55,881 nt of DNA, from the NCBI GenBank assembly GCA_037140955.1, contig JBAXDL010000006.1, forward strand, positions 1 to 55,881, read 5' to 3'. This document shows positions 14,387 through 20,905 of the stretch, one piece after another. Origin of the DNA: a bacterium. Lineage in GTDB: Bacteria; Patescibacteriota; Minisyncoccia; Moranbacterales; GWC2-37-73. The number at the start of each line of letters is the position of its first letter. The stretch's first letter is position 1. The translations under genes were made by a program, and so were the position numbers. A model generated the notes under the pieces. That model was not told the origin of the DNA. It made no database searches and saw only the letters and a list, made by a program, of their open reading frames with translations.

Positions 14387-14720
14387 AATTATAAATACTT
14401 TTTTACTTTATCAATTTACACTAATAGTATACCACAGTTCGATTGTACACTATTGATAGCAATGGAATTACGCGTCGTTTTTTAATGAAAACTCCTTGCC
14501 CGCAGCAGAGCTGAATGTTCGTATTCCTCATATTTATCTACGCTCGCTCATCTCACTTTCGTTCGATGCTCGCTTCTGAAGGAATGGGGAATCCTCCTCA
14601 CCCAAACTTTTTCGCGAGTACGCAGAAAAAGTTTTCCTTCGGAGCCTGGGTTTTCAAAAAAGCAAAATCGTTTGCTTTTTTGAAATACCCTTCGATTCCC
14701 ACCATATTCAAACCATAAAG

Positions 14721-14757
14721 AAAAATCCCCTGAGTCAAAAACTCAGGGGATTTTTCT
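14721..14757. terminator. Bidirectional intrinsic terminator
   Basis: AAAAATCCCCTGAGT-CAAAA-ACTCAGGGGATTTTT, a perfect 15-bp stem. Confidence 0.8.
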
Positions 14758-14896
14758 TTATGGAGAGCGACACATCTCCACCCCGAACTATTATTAAAGG
14801 AAAAACACAATCTTACTTTTATCTGCTATAATATAGATACAAAAATTCGCCGTATAGGCGTTAGTTATAAACAAATAGCATAAAGCCATTACTATT

Positions 14897-15250
14897 ATGT
14901 CAAAAACCCCGTCAAAGCCAAATAATGAGTCCGAGGAGATCAATGCGATGTTTGATAAGCTCGAAAAGGGAGATTATTCAGGTGTGGAAAATTTCATGTC
15001 AAAAGCCATGCCAAAATTAGCTAAAGTTTTCAATGATTTTGATCCTAAGCTAAATTCTTTCACTGGCTATATTAAAAAGGATGAAAATAAAGAAGTTTCA
15101 AGTGATAATATTGGCCTTCTTTCATATACCACAACCGATCCAATTGTAAACATTGGCGCTAACAAACGACCTTTGCAAGTAGGCTTCTCGTCAGTAGAGC
15201 AAGACAACGACCAACTTTTACACTTTCTTTTCAATAAATCCAAGCGTTAA
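14897..15250 (+). CDS. Hypothetical protein (117 aa, soluble, acidic N-terminus)
   Basis: ORF followed by the terminator at 15280-15304. No family recognised. Confidence 0.5.
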   Translation: MSKTPSKPNNESEEINAMFDKLEKGDYSGVENFMSKAMPKLAKVFNDFDPKLNSFTGYIKKDENKEVSSDNIGLLSYTTTDPIVNIGANKRPLQVGFSSVEQDNDQLLHFLFNKSKR

Positions 15251-15279
15251 GAAGATCAATTATAAATCATGCTTATCTG

Positions 15280-15304
15280 CCAGCACCGAAAATGCTGGTT
15301 TTTT
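15280..15304 (+). terminator. Intrinsic terminator
   Basis: CCAGCA-CCGAAAA-TGCTGG followed by TTTTTT. Confidence 0.75.
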
Positions 15305-15344
15305 CAAACTTGTGTTTTTCCCATATTTATAGTAAATTTTAGAA

Positions 15345-15518
15345 GCTATCAAATTCAAATAGATTCTAAAATAGCTCTACAAAGCTATCCTAATCGTGTT
15401 CTGTGTTGGCAACCCGATGCAAACGATTAGGATACGTTAGTATCTTTTTGAGTTTGATAGCCTTCGGGCTGCCAACTTAGAAGGCACTTTCCCGAAGACT
15501 TATTTATTAAGTCTTTTT
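15345..15518 (+). ncRNA. Candidate structured RNA / cis-regulatory leader (unclassified)
   Basis: 15-bp helix 15345-15359/15447-15461 (one G-U), extended by 4 bp. Perfect 12-bp helix 15386-15397/15423-15434. The loop GTTGGCAACCC (15405-15415) is complementary to 15466-15476 in 10 of 11 positions. A competing helix is CTTCGGG/CCCGAAG (15462-15468/15491-15497). A terminator-like hairpin GACTTA-TTTAT-TAAGTC plus TTTTT ends 4 nt before the ATG at 15522. Confidence 0.5.
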
Positions 15519-15521
15519 ATT

Positions 15522-15803
15522 ATGCCACAAATACTTTTCGCACTACTTGTAAGTCTTTTGTTTACTTGGGGTCTTGGTTTATTGTTGCCAATTCTTTTGC
15601 GCTTTGTGATTGTGAAAAAACAGATTGGACAAATTTGGGCATGGCTAGTCATATTCATGGTTTTTGGTTTTCAAACCATAGGAGCATTACTGTTGGGAAG
15701 TAGAAGCAAAGGACATCCAGCATTTGCCTTGGTGGCTTATGTTGGTTATTTGATAATGCGCAGAGAAACAAACACTAAAGAAAATAATCAAATAGCAAAA
15801 TAA
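15522..15803 (+). CDS. Hypothetical small membrane protein (3 TM, 93 aa)
   Basis: Hydrophobic ORF separated by 2 nt from the next ORF (stop 15803, next ATG 15806). Confidence 0.55.
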   Translation: MPQILFALLVSLLFTWGLGLLLPILLRFVIVKKQIGQIWAWLVIFMVFGFQTIGALLLGSRSKGHPAFALVAYVGYLIMRRETNTKENNQIAK

Positions 15804-15805
15804 GT

Positions 15806-16204
15806 ATGGCTCATATTTTTGGCGTTATTGTCGTTTATGCGTTATTTGCTTGGGCATATATATCTTTCATTATCACTGTAATTATATTAGTCACAAACTT
15901 TGAAGGCGAAGATGTTTTTGGGGTGCCAGTTAATTTCTTTCTTCTGCCAGCTTTTTGGTGCTTAGTATTTTTTTTAATGCCAGGATTTGAGAAGGCTTTA
16001 TTTTTTATTCCCGCAGATTGGATGAGTGAAGGCGATGGGGGTTGGTATTCTTCAAGGGGAACTTATGCTGGCATTCTTGCTTTTTTCGCAAGTGTTGGCA
16101 TTGCTTTATTTTTTGTGAAATATGCTGAAATGAGAAATAAGCTAGAACGAACTAAAAATGAATTAGAGGCAAAAAAGAAAAAACGAAATAAAATAAATTA
16201 CTAA
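15806..16204 (+). CDS. Hypothetical membrane protein (132 aa) with a basic coiled C-terminal tail
   Basis: 3-4 TM segments, then KLERTKNELEAKKKKRNK. Confidence 0.55.
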   Translation: MAHIFGVIVVYALFAWAYISFIITVIILVTNFEGEDVFGVPVNFFLLPAFWCLVFFLMPGFEKALFFIPADWMSEGDGGWYSSRGTYAGILAFFASVGIALFFVKYAEMRNKLERTKNELEAKKKKRNKINY

Positions 16205-16213
16205 AAAAGATAC

Positions 16214-16444
16214 ATGGCTACATTTCAAATTACAACATGCCCGACTTGCAGACAAGAGTTCGAAGAAGAAATAGATCCTCTTCCATGTTTAGTTCTTTAT
16301 GGTGACGAAGAAAAGAAAGAATGCCCACTCTGCCATGCTTTCTTTGATGAGTATGATAAGGCATTGGAATTTAGATTCAGGCGGGTGCCAAATCCTAAAA
16401 AGCTAAGCAGATTTGAAAGAATAAAAAAGTGGTTCAAGATATAA
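16214..16444 (+). CDS. Small zinc-ribbon protein (76 aa)
   Basis: CPTC...CPLC motif pair. Third gene of a tightly packed trio. Confidence 0.5.
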   Translation: MATFQITTCPTCRQEFEEEIDPLPCLVLYGDEEKKECPLCHAFFDEYDKALEFRFRRVPNPKKLSRFERIKKWFKI

Positions 16445-18335: not shown

Positions 18336-19028
18336 GCAATCCCTTTTTGTTTTTTGCACGTGGGAAGTGGTTATTGGGTCCCCGACCGCAAAAGGGTACC
18401 CATGGGTGTGTATGGCTTTCTGTGCCAGCCCATCAAGGATCTTGAACAATATAACAAGTTAAGAGGCAATCCCTTTTTATGGTGGTAAGTCTGATTTATT
18501 TTGAAGTTTTTTCAGCCAGTAAAGCACTAATTAAAAGCGCAATAACCATCAAGTAGCAAGTACCCCAACTTTACCCCTTATACTCATTGCAACTTTATCC
18601 CTTATACCCACAAATAGTATTCTCTTTTTTATGGTCGGAAGTCGTAATTATTCTGAAGTTTTTTTACCCAGTAAATTACAGGTTGTAATACTAATAATCA
18701 ACAAATCGCAAGTACCTGAACTTAGGCGCTTATTCACCTTGCAACTTCATGGCTTAGCAATCTCTTTTTATGGTGTCATGTTGTATTTATTTTTAGATAT
18801 TTTTTAACTCAAAAAAGACTTTATGTAAGGCATAAATTCTCTTATAAGCAATTATAGGAAATATGGAAACATTACCGCTTATACCCCTTCAAAATATTAT
18901 GCCCTTTGCGGGCGATTTTGGGTAAAGTTGGTTTTATTATTGAGAAATTAGCTTCAAATAAGCCATAATGAGTGAAGCATGGCTAGATGTTTGAAAGATT
19001 GATACAATAACCATACAATTCTTTTTTT
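18336..19028. repeat. Degenerate tandem array, units of about 130-150 bp, anchored by GCAAT(C/T)C(C/T)CTTTTT-ATGG
   Basis: Anchor motif at 18336, 18466 (the identical 13-mer GCAATCCCTTTTT), 18618, 18757 and 19015. Units 18466-18617 and 18618-18756 align over their whole length (for example GAAGTTTTTT(T)..CCAGTAAA, GCAAGTACC, CTTAT.C.C.TTGCAACTT). Confidence 0.7.
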
Positions 19029-19075: not shown

Positions 19076-20842
19076 TTGAAAGAAGAACAAACAGAATCTG
19101 TGAGGGTTGCACTCTATGTGAGAGTATCAACCGATGATCAGGTTGAAAAATATGGCCCCGAACTACAAAAAGAAGCCTTACTGGGACTAATAAAATCAAA
19201 AGGGACCCTTGCAAATGGGAAGCCTAGATTTGTGCTTGCTGGGGATGAGCATATTTATTTTGAGGAGGGCATCAGCGGAACTATGCCAGTAGATGAAAGA
19301 CCTCAATTTTCAAGATTAAAAGAAAATATACTACTAGCATCAGAAGATCAAAAACCTTTTGACCTCGTGGCTGTTTACAAGATTGATAGGTTTGCACGTA
19401 AGCTGAAAATACTACTAGACATAATAGATTTTTTTGAATTTCATGGAATAAAGTTTATTTCAGCAAATGAAAGCATAGACACTTCAACCCCTTTTGGCAA
19501 AGCCATTCTTGGGATTATTGGCGTTATCGCTGAACTGGAAATAGAAACCACAAAAATGCGAACCCATGATGGTCGTGAGCAAGCAGCAAAAAGAGGTGTT
19601 ATTATGGGAAGCTCCTCTGTTTATGGATATGACAAGGATGAAGAAAAAAGGCACAAAATTCTTGAAGTTGAGGCCAAAATAGTAGAAATGATTTTTGATT
19701 TATTTGTGAATGAAAAAAAGTCTGCTTTCCAAATATCCAAATATCTATCCGAGCTACGAATCCCCACCAAGGGGGCTTCTGCCATAATAAATAAAAAAAG
19801 AAAAGGTCAAATAAAGCAAAAATCCAGTATTTATTTTTGGAAAGAAGGCGCAATTAGGGAAATTTTGCACGATGAAGTTTATATTGGAAATGTTTATTAC
19901 GACAAAGGCGAACGAGGCAAGACATTCCCCAAAGAGCAATGGAAGCTATCCGAGTTCAAATCTCCTGCTATTATCGATAGGCTTACTTTTGAAAAAGCGC
20001 AGAGTATTTTTGAATCATCAAAGCATGAGAATAAACAAACCCGAAGCAAACACACATATCTTTTGAGTGGACTGTTAAAATGTGATGCCTGTTATGATGA
20101 TGAGAAAGATATAACGGGTCGAATTTGCTGGACAGGAGACAGAAGAGAAATCAAAAAAGGAAATGGCAAATTTGCATATTCTTATAAATGCAATCGAAAA
20201 AATCCAGCCAAGCATGAGCATACATGCACCACAATCCCACTGCCAGCTAATGAAATAGAAAACTACATCATGGGTTTCTGCAAGAAACTCATTCAAAACC
20301 CGCTAGCAACATATAAGCATCAAGTCAGGCTCAATTCAACCAAAATAGCCATAAAGCAGCTCAAAAAAAGAGAGGAGGAATTGCTCAACGCCATCAATGG
20401 CTTCGTATTCCAAAAAGAGAGGATCAGGGAACAGCATACGCTCGGACTTCTTTCTACTGAAAAAATGCAAGAACAATTTAGCGACTTGGATACACGAAGA
20501 ATAAAACTTCAAACACAATTTACCGAGGTTCAGAGCCAAATTTCTGAAAACATCCTTTCGGAAAACTATAAAGAAACACTAGAGTTATTTTCCGCTAAAT
20601 ACAAAAAGAATATTCCCAGTGTCTTTGAAAACAGACTTGCTACACACGAACTAATTCACCAACTGATTGAAGAAATCGTGGTTTATTCCCGTCCGATAGA
20701 AAACGCTGATATTATTGCTGGCAAACGAAAAAAGGATCAAAAGATCCCTTTTCGCCTTCATATTAAATTGAAGTTACCACAAGACATTCTTACTGACCTC
20801 ACCGAGAGGTTCGGGGCAGGAAAGTCTCCTTTGAGCGGGTAG
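19076..20842 (+). CDS. Large serine recombinase (resolvase N-domain, recombinase domain, Zn ribbon, coiled coil)
   Basis: VALYVRVSTDDQ catalytic Ser motif, YKIDRFARK, ISANESIDTSTPFGKA. Recombinase domain YGYDKDE...IFDLF. Cys cluster LLKCDACY...YKCNRK...HTCTT. TTG start (or GTG at 19100). The last 9 nt overlap tRNA-Gly. Confidence 0.9.
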   Translation: MKEEQTESVRVALYVRVSTDDQVEKYGPELQKEALLGLIKSKGTLANGKPRFVLAGDEHIYFEEGISGTMPVDERPQFSRLKENILLASEDQKPFDLVAVYKIDRFARKLKILLDIIDFFEFHGIKFISANESIDTSTPFGKAILGIIGVIAELEIETTKMRTHDGREQAAKRGVIMGSSSVYGYDKDEEKRHKILEVEAKIVEMIFDLFVNEKKSAFQISKYLSELRIPTKGASAIINKKRKGQIKQKSSIYFWKEGAIREILHDEVYIGNVYYDKGERGKTFPKEQWKLSEFKSPAIIDRLTFEKAQSIFESSKHENKQTRSKHTYLLSGLLKCDACYDDEKDITGRICWTGDRREIKKGNGKFAYSYKCNRKNPAKHEHTCTTIPLPANEIENYIMGFCKKLIQNPLATYKHQVRLNSTKIAIKQLKKREEELLNAINGFVFQKERIREQHTLGLLSTEKMQEQFSDLDTRRIKLQTQFTEVQSQISENILSENYKETLELFSAKYKKNIPSVFENRLATHELIHQLIEEIVVYSRPIENADIIAGKRKKDQKIPFRLHIKLKLPQDILTDLTERFGAGKSPLSG

Positions 20843-20905
20843 GGGGAATCGAACCCCCCTCCTCAGATTGGAAGTCTGATATAATAACCACTATACGACA
20901 CCCGC
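20834..20905 (-). tRNA. tRNA-Gly (anticodon TCC)
   Basis: Reverse complement: acceptor GCGGGTG/TACCCGC, anticodon stem TCAGA/TCTGA with loop CTTCCAA, T arm GGGGG-TTCGATT-CCCCC, discriminator T. Confidence 0.88.

What the first reader, a model, noticed from the sequence alone, without database searches (positions are those of the whole stretch)
15345..15521. Highly base-paired, pseudoknot-capable RNA element upstream of the island's membrane-protein trio
Seen in sequence. This 175-nt stretch lies between the terminator at 15280-15304 and the ATG at 15522. A 15-bp helix (15345-15359 with 15447-15461, one G-U) extends by 4 more bp after one mismatch. A perfect 12-bp helix pairs 15386-15397 with 15423-15434. 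The 25-nt loop of that helix contains GTTGGCAACCC, complementary in 10 of 11 positions to GGGCTGCCAAC at 15466-15476, which could form a pseudoknot. That same 3' segment can instead pair locally (GCC-TTCG-GGC, or CTTCGGG 15462-15468 with CCCGAAG 15491-15497). A weak terminator-like hairpin plus T-run (15497-15518) ends 4 nt before the start codon. Long perfect helices with mutually exclusive alternatives in front of a terminator and start codon are the architecture of riboswitches and attenuators, or of a stand-alone sRNA. I could not match the element to riboswitch classes I know that control small membrane proteins (fluoride/crcB, guanidine I-III).
Basis: partly seen in the sequence, partly recalled or inferred. 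Interest (0 to 1): 0.65.

Follow-up and report, generated by a model that had tools for sequence, protein, structure and literature searches.

The report
New structured leader RNA on Patescibacteria islands
The 175-base stretch is a real, previously uncatalogued structured RNA with its own promoter, a pseudoknot and a terminator, and it sits on mobile islands of tiny uncultured bacteria directly in front of small membrane-protein genes, which it probably switches on and off.

Summary
The stretch folds far better than shuffled sequence (z = -7.6). It is one copy of a conserved RNA family. I found 16 distinct members in metagenomes and MAGs, mostly labelled Patescibacteria (CPR). None matches any of the 4227 Rfam 15 models.

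Covariation is strong for the long closing helix P1 and for hairpin P3: 98% of cells are paired and 23 pairs carry compensatory changes. It is moderate for the pseudoknot between the P3 loop and the 3' tail. It is weak for hairpin P4, which competes with both the pseudoknot and the terminator.

A conserved extended -10 promoter ends 6 nt before the invariant G that opens P1. An intrinsic terminator is followed 5-10 nt later by a start codon.

The RNA lies on islands that carry a large serine recombinase integrated at tRNA genes. The genes behind it are not homologous between islands, and most encode small membrane proteins.

Best reading: a cis-acting transcription attenuator that gates the island's cargo operon. 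The signal it senses is unknown. A stand-alone or trans-acting island sRNA, like phage P4 CI RNA, is not excluded. A MITE, a DNA site and chance are rejected.

The parts
15310..15338 (+). Promoter. The -35-like hexamer TTGTGT is at 15310-15315, followed by a 17-nt spacer and the -10 hexamer TAAATT at 15333-15338. The -10 ends 6 nt before P1.
   Evidence: In 12 of the 13 members examined, a TGnTAWWTT (extended -10) motif ends exactly 6 nt before the invariant G that opens P1. The window copy has AG instead of TG (alignments). The function is inferred from conservation. The simple consensus scan did not call it.
15345..15518 (+). The RNA itself, about 174 nt, from the predicted 5' end (G15345) to the end of the terminator T-run.
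   Evidence: Fold z = -7.6. Covariance model R1 scores it 158.8 bits, E = 3e-36. There are 16 distinct homologues. No conserved ORF in any frame. No Rfam match.
15345..15369 (+). 5' strands of P1a (15345-15357) and P1b (15364-15369), separated by internal loop 15358-15363 (AAUAGA).
   Evidence: They pair with 15449-15461 and 15437-15442. In P1a, 9 of 13 pairs carry compensatory changes and 99.5% of cells are paired. In P1b, 4 of 6 pairs carry compensatory changes. Coordinates.
15371..15388 (+). P2, a variable hairpin (AUAGCU...AGCUAU) at the three-way junction.
   Evidence: Present with unrelated sequence in 8-9 members. Absent, or replaced by an alternative pairing, in the others.
15389..15431 (+). 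P3 hairpin. The stem is 15389-15396 with 15424-15431; in the window copy it extends to 15386-15397 with 15423-15434. The loop is 27 nt, 15397-15423.
   Evidence: 7 of 8 stem pairs carry compensatory changes and 100% of cells are paired. The loop holds the best-conserved unpaired letters (UGCACA, UUUAG in most members).
15405..15417 (+). Pseudoknot 5' strand, inside the P3 loop (GUUGGCAACCCGA). The extended form is 15400-15419.
   Evidence: Pairs with 15464-15476 (extended form 15462-15481). Duplex energy is -24.5 kcal/mol against -9.5 +/- 2.6 for shuffled tails, 0 of 500 as good. Across 16 members, 95.1% of cells are paired against 92.8 +/- 0.7 in shuffles (0 of 500) and 40-63% when slid.
15437..15461 (+). 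3' strands of P1b (15437-15442) and P1a (15449-15461).
15462..15481 (+). 3' tail. It is the pseudoknot 3' strand (core 15464-15476). Alternatively it is the 5' half of hairpin P4 (P4a 15462-15468, P4b 15470-15473).
15483..15497 (+). 3' half of P4: P4b at 15483-15486 and P4a at 15491-15497 (CCCGAAG). The last 3 nt are shared with the terminator stem.
   Evidence: The nascent 3' domain folds into the full P4 in all 13 members tested. P4a is 95.5% paired, with only one compensatory pair.
15495..15518 (+). Intrinsic terminator. The stem is 15495-15502 with 15508-15515, and the T-run is 15514-15518.
   Evidence: The hairpin and T-run are conserved in 16 of 16 members with 100% of cells paired. The terminator scan calls it in L053 but not in the window copy, which has only 2 G-C pairs.
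15522..16444 (+). Operon behind the RNA: a 93-aa membrane protein (15522-15803), a 132-aa membrane protein (15806-16204) and a 76-aa zinc-ribbon protein (16214-16444).
   Evidence: ORFs. The start codon lies 5-10 nt after the terminator stem in 12 of 13 members. The 93-aa protein is an orphan. The 132-aa and 76-aa proteins have few relatives.
19076..20842 (+). Large serine recombinase gene of the island.
   Evidence: Pfam Resolvase plus Recombinase domains. Homologues lie next to the RNA in L044, L050, L054 and L055-L063.
20833..20905 (-). tRNA-Gly(UCC). Its 3' end is overlapped by the 3' end of the recombinase gene, which marks the likely integration site.
   Evidence: The same arrangement occurs in L044, L050 and L054.

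Best explanation
The stretch encodes a member of a new family of structured leader RNAs, about 175 nt long. The family is carried by mobile islands that use a large serine recombinase to integrate at tRNA genes in Patescibacteria (CPR) genomes.

Transcription and fold. The RNA is transcribed from its own promoter and starts at the G that opens P1. It folds into a long closing helix (P1a and P1b), a variable hairpin P2, and a conserved hairpin P3.

Switch. The 27-nt loop of P3 can pair over 13-20 bp with the tail that follows P1, forming a pseudoknot. That same tail is also the 5' half of a local hairpin, P4. The foot of P4 uses 3 nt that the terminator stem needs.
- When the pseudoknot forms, P4 cannot form. 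The full 8-10-bp terminator then folds and transcription stops 4 nt before the start codon.
- When the pseudoknot is prevented, P4 forms first. That leaves the terminator a weak A/U-rich stem of about 6 bp (5 bp in the window copy if P4a is complete), and RNA polymerase reads into the cargo operon of small membrane proteins.

What is shown and what is inferred. Shown: the family exists, it is non-coding, P1 and P3 covary, the promoter, terminator and start-codon layout is conserved, and the RNA sits on islands. Supported but weaker: the pseudoknot. Inferred: the switching logic, the cis action and the direction of regulation. The signal that controls the pseudoknot is unknown; it could be a small ligand, an island or host protein, or another RNA.
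For: - Structure beyond chance: z = -7.6; the homologue L002 gives z = -8.3 with the same architecture.
- Family: homologues were found by two DNA pattern scans. A search not biased by RNA sequence, through recombinase homologues, also found them. R1 scores for the 16 members run from 108 to 204 bits.
- Covariation on 16 members: 98.0% of cells paired against 88.4 +/- 0.6 in shuffles; 23 pairs with changes on both sides against 12.0 +/- 1.8 (0 of 500); slid controls 33-48%.
- Strand: 69 G-U cells on the 13-member alignment would be A-C mismatches on the other strand.
- Pseudoknot: kept in five sequence versions (window; L002/L052; majority; L056; L063). Tail column 148 is C only when loop column 98 is G (A-U 8, G-C 5, G-U 3) (A6 columns; 99/148 in A3).
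- P4 against terminator: column 190 (A6 numbering; column 188 in A3) pairs with 147 in P4 and with 212 in the terminator. In the window copy all three changed together (U, A, U against G, C, G).
- Folding of the 3' domain in 13 of 13 members: the nascent RNA forms the full P4; sequestering the tail gives the full 9-10-bp terminator.
- Layout: the extended -10 motif ends 6 nt before P1 in 12 of 13; the ATG follows the terminator by 5-10 nt in 12 of 13; the first ORF has a hydrophobic segment in 11 of 13. This leaves no room for a separate promoter for the genes behind.
- Context: the RNA is always followed by same-strand ORFs and sits at the divergent junction next to recombinase or replication genes.
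Against: - No transcript data. No RNA run holds the window or L043. The one metatranscriptome hit is a single contig on a downstream ORF.
- Covariation for P4 is weak: one compensatory pair, 27 of 500 shuffles as good.
- Covariation for the pseudoknot is moderate: compensatory-pair count reached by 55 of 500 shuffles, covariation score by 1 of 500. Both regions are highly conserved in sequence.
- P4 and the terminator overlap by only 3 bp. At equilibrium a shortened P4 and a 6-8-bp terminator coexist. Any switching would therefore have to be kinetic.
- The genes behind the RNA share no function that points to a signal.
- In L043 the ATG after the terminator opens only a 4-codon ORF, and in L046 the ATG is 18 nt away.
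- A pseudoknot of 13-20 bp is unusually long for a cis sensor.
Confidence: 0.55

Rival explanations
1. Stand-alone, stable island sRNA. The terminated RNA of about 175 nt is the functional product. Its exposed P3 loop acts in trans, either on the tails of nascent leader transcripts of the same or an incoming island, or on other targets. This would resemble the way P4 CI RNA causes premature termination, or the way short IsrK acts on its own read-through form. Expression of the genes behind would be a by-product of read-through.
For: - It has its own promoter and a good terminator. A long P1 clamps both ends, as in stable sRNAs.
- The loop-tail complementarity of 13-20 bp (-21 to -26 kcal/mol) is more typical of antisense pairs than of riboswitch pseudoknots.
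- Loop and tail change together in blocks, giving at least five 'types'. This is what heteroimmune specificity groups would look like.
- It is carried by a mobile element, at the divergent control region next to recombinase and replication genes.
- The genes behind it are unrelated.
- Precedents: P4 CI RNA and Gifsy-1 IsrK (PMC4825925, read).
Against: - The terminated RNA contains both loop and tail, so it would tend to pair with itself.
- No second copy of the target sequence occurs elsewhere in the window.
- The fixed spacing between terminator and start codon, and the P4-terminator overlap, argue for coupling to the gene behind.
- No hit to Rfam models of C4 or IsrK-type RNAs.
Confidence: 0.25
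2. Classical metabolite or ion riboswitch. The P1-P2-P3 junction together with the pseudoknot forms a pocket for a small ligand, and ligand binding sets termination. This is a special case of the best explanation, listed separately because the reader proposed it.
For: - Conserved unpaired letters in the P3 loop and in the internal loop of P1.
- A variable peripheral hairpin P2.
- An aptamer-like domain followed by an expression platform.
- Membrane proteins behind it, as with many ion riboswitches. DUF805 is the first gene twice, in L053 and L063.
Against: - The downstream genes are not homologous and have no shared annotated function.
- The element belongs to mobile islands, not to metabolic or transport operons.
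- No similarity to any riboswitch class in Rfam.
- The very long pseudoknot is atypical.
Confidence: 0.15
3. A DNA-level feature or repeat element. Options are the terminal inverted repeats of a MITE, a recombinase att or arm site, or a single-strand replication origin of the island.
For: - Long inverted repeats. The minus strand also folds well (z = -6.35).
- It lies close to a serine recombinase and to replication genes.
Against: - Single copy per locus and in the 55.9-kb window.
- About 11% of paired cells are G-U, which only work on the + strand as RNA.
- Helix sequences differ completely between members while pairing is kept.
- A pseudoknotted third pairing is conserved.
- The promoter and terminator are at fixed distances.
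- Serine recombinase att sites are about 40-50 bp dyads (own knowledge), not nested helices spanning 175 nt.
- No match in phage, plasmid or viral collections.
Confidence: 0.03

Closest known systems
Riboswitches and other terminator/antiterminator leader RNAs (transcription attenuators)
   Same: - A 5' leader that starts at the transcription start.
- A conserved structured sensor-like domain with covarying helices and a pseudoknot.
- A tail that can join either the sensor or a local hairpin that competes with an intrinsic terminator placed just before the start codon.
   Different: - No match to any of the 4227 Rfam models.
- The controlled genes are unrelated small membrane proteins on a mobile island rather than one pathway.
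- The pseudoknot is 13-20 bp long.
- The ligand or factor is unknown, and the antiterminator overlaps the terminator by only 3 bp.
Satellite phage P4 CI RNA immunity (seqB pairing with seqA and seqC), and the related P1/P7 C4 RNAs
   Same: - An untranslated leader of a mobile-element operon.
- It contains a sequence complementary to another site in the same transcript.
- In P4, that pairing causes premature transcription termination (PMC4825925).
- The pairing partners change together between element types.
   Different: - Different fold and sequence, and no Rfam hit.
- One target site rather than two.
- The operon controlled encodes membrane proteins, not replication genes.
- Processing and trans action are untested here.
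- The host lineage is Patescibacteria.
Gifsy-1 prophage IsrK, a dual sRNA/mRNA
   Same: A prophage or island RNA with its own terminator. A fraction reads through into downstream genes, so the short and long forms share the same 5' part (PMC4825925).
   Different: IsrK acts on translation of the read-through form. There is no sequence or structural similarity. Nothing here shows that two isoforms exist.
Type III toxin-antitoxin loci (ToxIN layout: promoter, RNA, terminator, then the protein gene)
   Same: The order is the same: promoter, structured non-coding RNA, leaky terminator, then an ORF immediately behind.
   Different: - The RNA is not a tandem repeat array.
- The downstream proteins are diverse membrane proteins. 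None matched any Pfam family apart from DUF805, so nothing points to a conserved toxin endoribonuclease.

Membership tests
Any Rfam 15 family (riboswitches, sRNAs, ribozymes, C4, IsrK, STAXI and others) | A covariance-model match at or near the family's gathering score. | tested here: not met
   Window at gathering threshold: only tRNAs. Window 15200-15600 at E <= 10: one chance hit on the minus strand, YenS at 15.4 bits against a gathering score of 80. Twelve homologous loci: only tRNAs. L053 at E <= 10: frnS at 14.3 bits against 60.
Riboswitch / attenuator leader (as a kind) | A conserved structured domain whose helices are kept through compensatory changes. | tested here: met
   23 of 49 pairs carry changes on both sides. 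98% of cells are paired, 0 of 500 shuffles reach this, and slid controls give 33-48%.
Riboswitch / attenuator leader (as a kind) | Mutually exclusive pairings that link the sensor to an intrinsic terminator. | tested here: inconclusive
   The pseudoknot, P4 and the terminator share strands. Each is at least 95% paired across members, and the folding behaves as expected in 13 of 13. However, covariation for P4 is weak and the overlap with the terminator is only 3 bp.
Riboswitch / attenuator leader (as a kind) | Position in the 5' UTR of the regulated gene, on the same strand. | tested here: met
   In all 13 members checked in detail, same-strand ORFs follow the RNA. The ATG is 5-10 nt after the terminator stem in 12 of 13. 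In L055, L056, L061 and L063 the RNA again has same-strand genes downstream.
Metabolite riboswitch (strict sense) | Association with genes of one coherent function that point to the ligand. | tested here: not met
   The first genes behind the RNA are not homologous to each other apart from weak BLASTP links among three of them (W, L044, L051; E < 1e-4). Only DUF805 recurs as a Pfam family, twice.
Metabolite riboswitch (strict sense) | Direct, selective ligand binding by the RNA. | not testable with these tools
   Needs in-line probing, ITC or SHAPE with candidate ligands.
Intrinsic (Rho-independent) terminator | A G+C-containing stem-loop directly followed by a U-run. | tested here: met
   L053: 10-pair stem plus T-run, called by the scan. 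The hairpin and T-run are present in 16 of 16 members. The window copy is weaker (8 pairs, 2 G-C, T5) and falls below the scan's G-C rule.
MITE or other multi-copy repeat with terminal inverted repeats | Many near-identical copies per genome, with terminal inverted repeats conserved in sequence. | tested here: not met
   One copy in the 55.9-kb window and one per locus. Arm sequences differ between members while pairing is kept. Whole genomes could not be searched.
P4 CI / P1 C4-type immunity RNA | A processed stable RNA that acts in trans on complementary sites to terminate transcription or block translation. | not testable with these tools
   Intramolecular complementarity is present. Processing and trans action need experiments. 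There is no sequence or model similarity.
Type III toxin-antitoxin RNA | Tandem direct repeats in the RNA that are cut by the adjacent toxin endoribonuclease. | tested here: not met
   No tandem repeats within 15200-15600. No toxin-like Pfam family in the downstream proteins.

The most novel reading that the evidence does not exclude
The RNA is a protein-free immunity or self-control switch of Patescibacteria mobile islands. The short terminated RNA presents its 27-nt loop and pairs in trans with the tail of nascent leaders from islands of the same loop/tail type. That pairing forces termination before the cargo operon. The five or more co-varying loop/tail versions would then be heteroimmunity (specificity) groups. 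This would be functionally parallel to P4 CI RNA but would use an unrelated fold, and in these islands it would take the place that a small HTH regulator holds in RNA-less relatives.
Probability: 0.15. Interest if true: 0.8.

Novelty: new variant of a known kind. Interest (0 to 1): 0.66.

Why it matters
Almost nothing is known about gene regulation, non-coding RNAs or mobile elements in Patescibacteria (CPR). These are abundant bacteria that are mostly uncultured.

This finding provides a well-supported new RNA family with a clear fold, a defined promoter and terminator, and a testable switching model. The family sits at the control region of a widespread group of serine-recombinase islands. 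Some of these islands carry defence-like cargo (AIPR, Panacea-type antitoxin domain, nuclease).

It gives a concrete handle for in vitro work (termination assays, structure probing, ligand or partner hunting) that does not require cultivating the host. If the sensor turns out to be a new ligand or an RNA-RNA specificity system, it would add a new regulatory class.

Tried and rejected
**Protein routes**
- Looking for relatives through the downstream proteins mostly failed. The 93-aa protein has no relatives among 5.8 billion proteins. The zinc-ribbon protein has two, and their contigs do not reach the RNA. The 132-aa protein has one close relative, which led to L002, the first homologue.
- An exact look-up of the 117-aa upstream protein only returned the same organism.

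**Read and run searches**
- Laying DNA runs on the region gave no variants in the element. It did reveal a fragment of a third homologue in run X2.
- RNA-seq: none for the window or L043. One uninformative contig for L044.

**Collection scans**
- Viral contigs (two patterns), the phage collection and the plasmid collection gave no match.
- Two genome-scan hits, L047 (Acrocarpospora) and L049 (a gammaproteobacterium), are chance matches in G+C-rich DNA. Thirty-eight of the 40 metagenome pattern hits were only the A/T-rich hairpin.

**Readings considered and rejected**
- 6S, SRP or Y-RNA-like housekeeping RNA: no Rfam hit, and it is borne on an island.
- Integron attC site: the pseudoknot, promoter and terminator do not fit.
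- Leader-peptide attenuation: no conserved ORF.
- A local hairpin within the P3 loop (P3a) as the only partner of GGGCG: it is kept at 93.8%, but mostly through G-U pairs, so it is probably the alternative to the pseudoknot.

**Literature**
- Searches found no description of this RNA.
Full report
**1. Observation**

As RNA, the + strand of 15340-15525 folds to -66.5 kcal/mol. Dinucleotide shuffles give -35.3 +/- 4.1 (z = -7.61, none of 200 as good). The minus strand folds less well (z = -6.35).

The element occurs once in the window. Rfam 15 finds only tRNAs in the window at gathering thresholds. At E <= 10 around the element it finds nothing meaningful.

**2. Finding relatives**

The 93-aa protein encoded behind the element is an orphan. 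The 132-aa protein has one close relative (52% identity). That relative lies on a 2.3-kb ENA contig, L002.

The intergenic region in front of the L002 operon is homologous to the window element. Its closing helix has a completely different sequence but still pairs, and it folds into the same architecture (z = -8.3).

A scan of metagenome contigs with the conserved terminator hairpin gave two more members, L033 and L043.

A degenerate two-block pattern scanned over one genome per GTDB species gave nine more (L044-L046, L048, L050-L054) and two chance hits. The MAG titles of the nine are:
- Moraniibacteriota: 2
- Parcubacteria: 1
- Patescibacteria: 1
- 'uncultured Bdellovibrionales': 4
- 'Micavibrio sp.': 1

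The last five contigs have 34-39% G+C, and two of them (L050, L051) encode a 586-595-aa IF-2. Their labels therefore need checking.

I also sampled in a way not biased by RNA sequence. Eight homologues of the window's recombinase (48-62% identity) were looked up on their contigs. Four of them (P0025, P0027, P0029, P0031) have the RNA directly upstream and divergent, and four do not.

This route added the divergent members L056 and L063. It brought the set to 16 distinct sequences, which score 108-204 bits with covariance model R1. None of the loci has an Rfam hit other than tRNAs.

**3. Structure**

On the 16-member alignment A6 I tested a model of P1a (13 bp), P1b (6 bp), P3 (8 bp), the pseudoknot (14 pairs) and the terminator (8 bp). 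Results:

| Measure | Observed | Control |
|---|---|---|
| Cells paired | 98.0% | 88.4 +/- 0.6 when partners are shuffled |
| Pairs changed on both sides | 23 | 12.0 +/- 1.8 (0 of 500 shuffles) |
| Cells paired, partners slid 1-3 columns | - | 33-48% |

Compensatory changes per helix are 9 of 13 pairs in P1a, 4 of 6 in P1b and 7 of 8 in P3.

About 11% of paired cells are G-U (69 of 623 on the 13-member alignment). This places the functional strand on +, the strand of the downstream genes.

P2 is variable and sometimes absent. No reading frame is conserved on either strand.

*Pseudoknot.* It joins the P3 loop to the tail that follows P1.
- As a free duplex it is 13-20 bp and -21 to -26 kcal/mol in every member. 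This is better than 500 shuffled tails in all or nearly all cases.
- It exists in at least five sequence versions: the window (GUUGGCA-A-CCCGA with UCGGG-C-UGCCAAC), L002/L052, the majority type, L056 and L063.
- Counted alone, it is 95.1% paired against 92.8 +/- 0.7 for shuffles (0 of 500) and 40-63% when slid. Only three pairs carry double changes (55 of 500 shuffles reach this). The covariation score is reached by 1 of 500.
- The fixed-column count understates the support, because L002/L052 pair one column out of register.
- Overall I rate the pseudoknot as supported, but less firmly than P1 and P3.

*P4.* The tail can instead form a local hairpin, P4 (P4a 7 bp plus a short P4b). It is 95.5% paired, with a single compensatory pair.
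- That single event is informative. In the window copy, the base that pairs in both P4 and the terminator (column 190 of A6) changed together with both of its partners: U147, A190 and U212, against G, C and G elsewhere.
- L043 has a wobble at both positions.

*P3a.* A small hairpin within the P3 loop competes with the pseudoknot's 5' strand. It is 93.8% paired, largely through G-U pairs.

**4. Transcription signals**

- A TGnTAWWTT motif (extended -10) ends exactly 6 nt before the invariant G that opens P1 in 12 of 13 members. The window has TAAATT without the TG, plus a TTGTGT 17 nt upstream.
- The terminator hairpin and T-run are present in all members. The simple scan calls it in L053.
- An ATG follows the terminator stem by 5-10 nt in 12 of 13 members. 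In 11 of 13 the ORF it opens has a hydrophobic segment.
- Sequence similarity between loci stops at the promoter on one side and at the start codon on the other.

**5. Context**

*In the window.* A large serine recombinase gene (Resolvase plus Recombinase domains) lies at 19076-20842. Its 3' end overlaps the 3' end of tRNA-Gly(UCC) at 20833-20905.

*In other loci.*
- The same recombinase-tRNA-Gly arrangement, with the RNA divergent and directly upstream of the recombinase, occurs in L044, L050 and L054.
- In L055-L063 the recombinase and the divergent RNA are arranged the same way; the tRNA was not checked there.
- A second family of large serine recombinases abuts tRNA-Asn in L045 and a cut tRNA in L048. 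It is also present in L052.
- Replication genes lie between recombinase and RNA in some loci: a RepO-like initiator in L045 and L053, and a primase-helicase in L048.

*General layout.* Recombinase and replication genes point one way. The RNA, followed by small, mostly membrane proteins, points the other way. In the window the RNA operon instead points towards the recombinase, 3.6 kb away.

*Genes behind the RNA.*
- They are not homologous between islands, apart from weak BLASTP links among the first ORFs of the window, L044 and L051. The exceptions are the 132-aa protein (window and L002), the zinc-ribbon protein (window, L002, L053) and DUF805 as first gene (L053, L063).
- Further cargo includes AIPR, a SocA/Panacea domain and an SNase-like nuclease.

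*Islands without the RNA.* Islands with a related recombinase but no RNA have a 64-67-aa HTH_17/MerR-type gene at the equivalent position.

*Other collections.* The element was not found in viral contigs, phage genomes or plasmids.

**6. Mechanism (inferred)**

The pairings form a chain of mutually exclusive helices: P3a or the pseudoknot; the pseudoknot or P4; the foot of P4 or the foot of the terminator.

Folding the 3' domain of 13 members shows three things:
- Before the terminator's 3' strand exists, the full P4 forms.
- With the tail sequestered, as in the pseudoknot, the full 9-10-bp terminator forms.
- With the tail free, P4 persists and the terminator is cut to about 6-7 A/U-rich pairs set back from the U-run.

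During transcription the tail emerges while the P3 loop is already available. The default is therefore probably pseudoknot, then terminator, then stop. Anything that blocks the pseudoknot would allow read-through.

The start codon sits 4 nt after the T-run and there is no visible Shine-Dalgarno sequence. The hairpin could therefore also hinder translation initiation.

None of this is shown experimentally. No usable transcript data exist.

**7. Rivals**

- *Stand-alone or trans-acting island sRNA.* This fits the long antisense-like pairing, the block-wise co-variation of loop and tail, and the control-region position. Precedents are P4 CI RNA and Gifsy-1 IsrK (PMC4825925). I give it 0.25.
- *Strict metabolite riboswitch.* Possible, but the gene context gives no support. 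I give it 0.15, as a special case of the cis model.
- *DNA-level explanations* (MITE, att site, single-strand origin). These are contradicted by single-copy occurrence, G-U pairs, complete sequence turnover of the helices with pairing kept, and the fixed promoter and terminator. I give them 0.03.

**8. Comparison with known families and novelty**

The RNA works like a terminator/antiterminator leader. It is not a member of any family in Rfam 15, and literature searches found no description of it.

I file it as a new family, and so as a new variant of a known kind of regulator. It is carried by serine-recombinase islands of Patescibacteria.

**9. Verdict**

| Claim | Rating |
|---|---|
| Observation | confirmed |
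| Structured RNA family | about 0.95 |
| Cis attenuator of the island cargo operon | 0.55 |
| Interest | 0.66 |

Noticed in passing
window 18337-18803: Three to four direct repeats of about 140-150 nt (GCAATCCCTTTTTATGGTG...GAAGTTTTTT...CCAGTAAA). They lie in the 800-nt gap between the 586-aa gene and the serine recombinase gene. They could be iterons, recombinase arm sites or another RNA.
   Followed up: partly
window 14387-14896 (especially 14416-14521): A 510-nt stretch with no long ORF. In run X1, positions 14416-14521 have about twice the contig depth of the flanks and several variant contigs. This suggests a repeated or polymorphic segment, possibly the far border of the island. A bidirectional terminator-like hairpin lies at 14725-14760.
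   Followed up: no
window 19076-20905; L044 5149-6976; L050; L054; L045 2303-3946: The 3' end of the large serine recombinase gene overlaps the 3' end of a tRNA gene. The tRNA is tRNA-Gly(UCC) in four loci and tRNA-Asn in L045. This points to tRNA genes as the integration target of these islands.
   Followed up: partly
L064-L067 (3684-3878) and L070-L071 (3673-3876): Islands with a related recombinase (49-55% identity) but without the RNA have a 64-67-aa HTH_17/MerR-type gene at the position the RNA occupies elsewhere, divergent from the recombinase.
   Followed up: partly
L048, L050, L051, L053, L054 (record titles): Contigs labelled 'uncultured Bdellovibrionales' or 'Micavibrio sp.' carry the same island RNA as Patescibacteria MAGs. 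They have 34-39% G+C, and L050 and L051 encode a short (586-595 aa) IF-2. This suggests mis-binning, mislabelling or horizontal transfer.
   Followed up: no
L055 3382-4575; L056 3010-3477; L061 3159-4094; L052 4510-7212: Cargo behind the RNA includes defence-like or toxin-antitoxin-like genes. These are AIPR, a SocA_Panacea domain, an SNase-like nuclease and a 900-aa protein of unknown function (no family search was run on it).
   Followed up: no
L053 6905-6935 and 7000-7012; L033 2505-2535: In some members the sequence UUUCGGU occurs twice. ACCGAAA can therefore pair either locally (a P2-like hairpin) or with the 3' strand (a long P1b). This is a possible further alternative pairing.
   Followed up: no
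L043 748-763: In this member the ATG after the terminator opens only a 4-codon ORF. The next gene, a 204-aa secreted or membrane protein, starts about 65 nt further on. No recombinase is in view.
   Followed up: no
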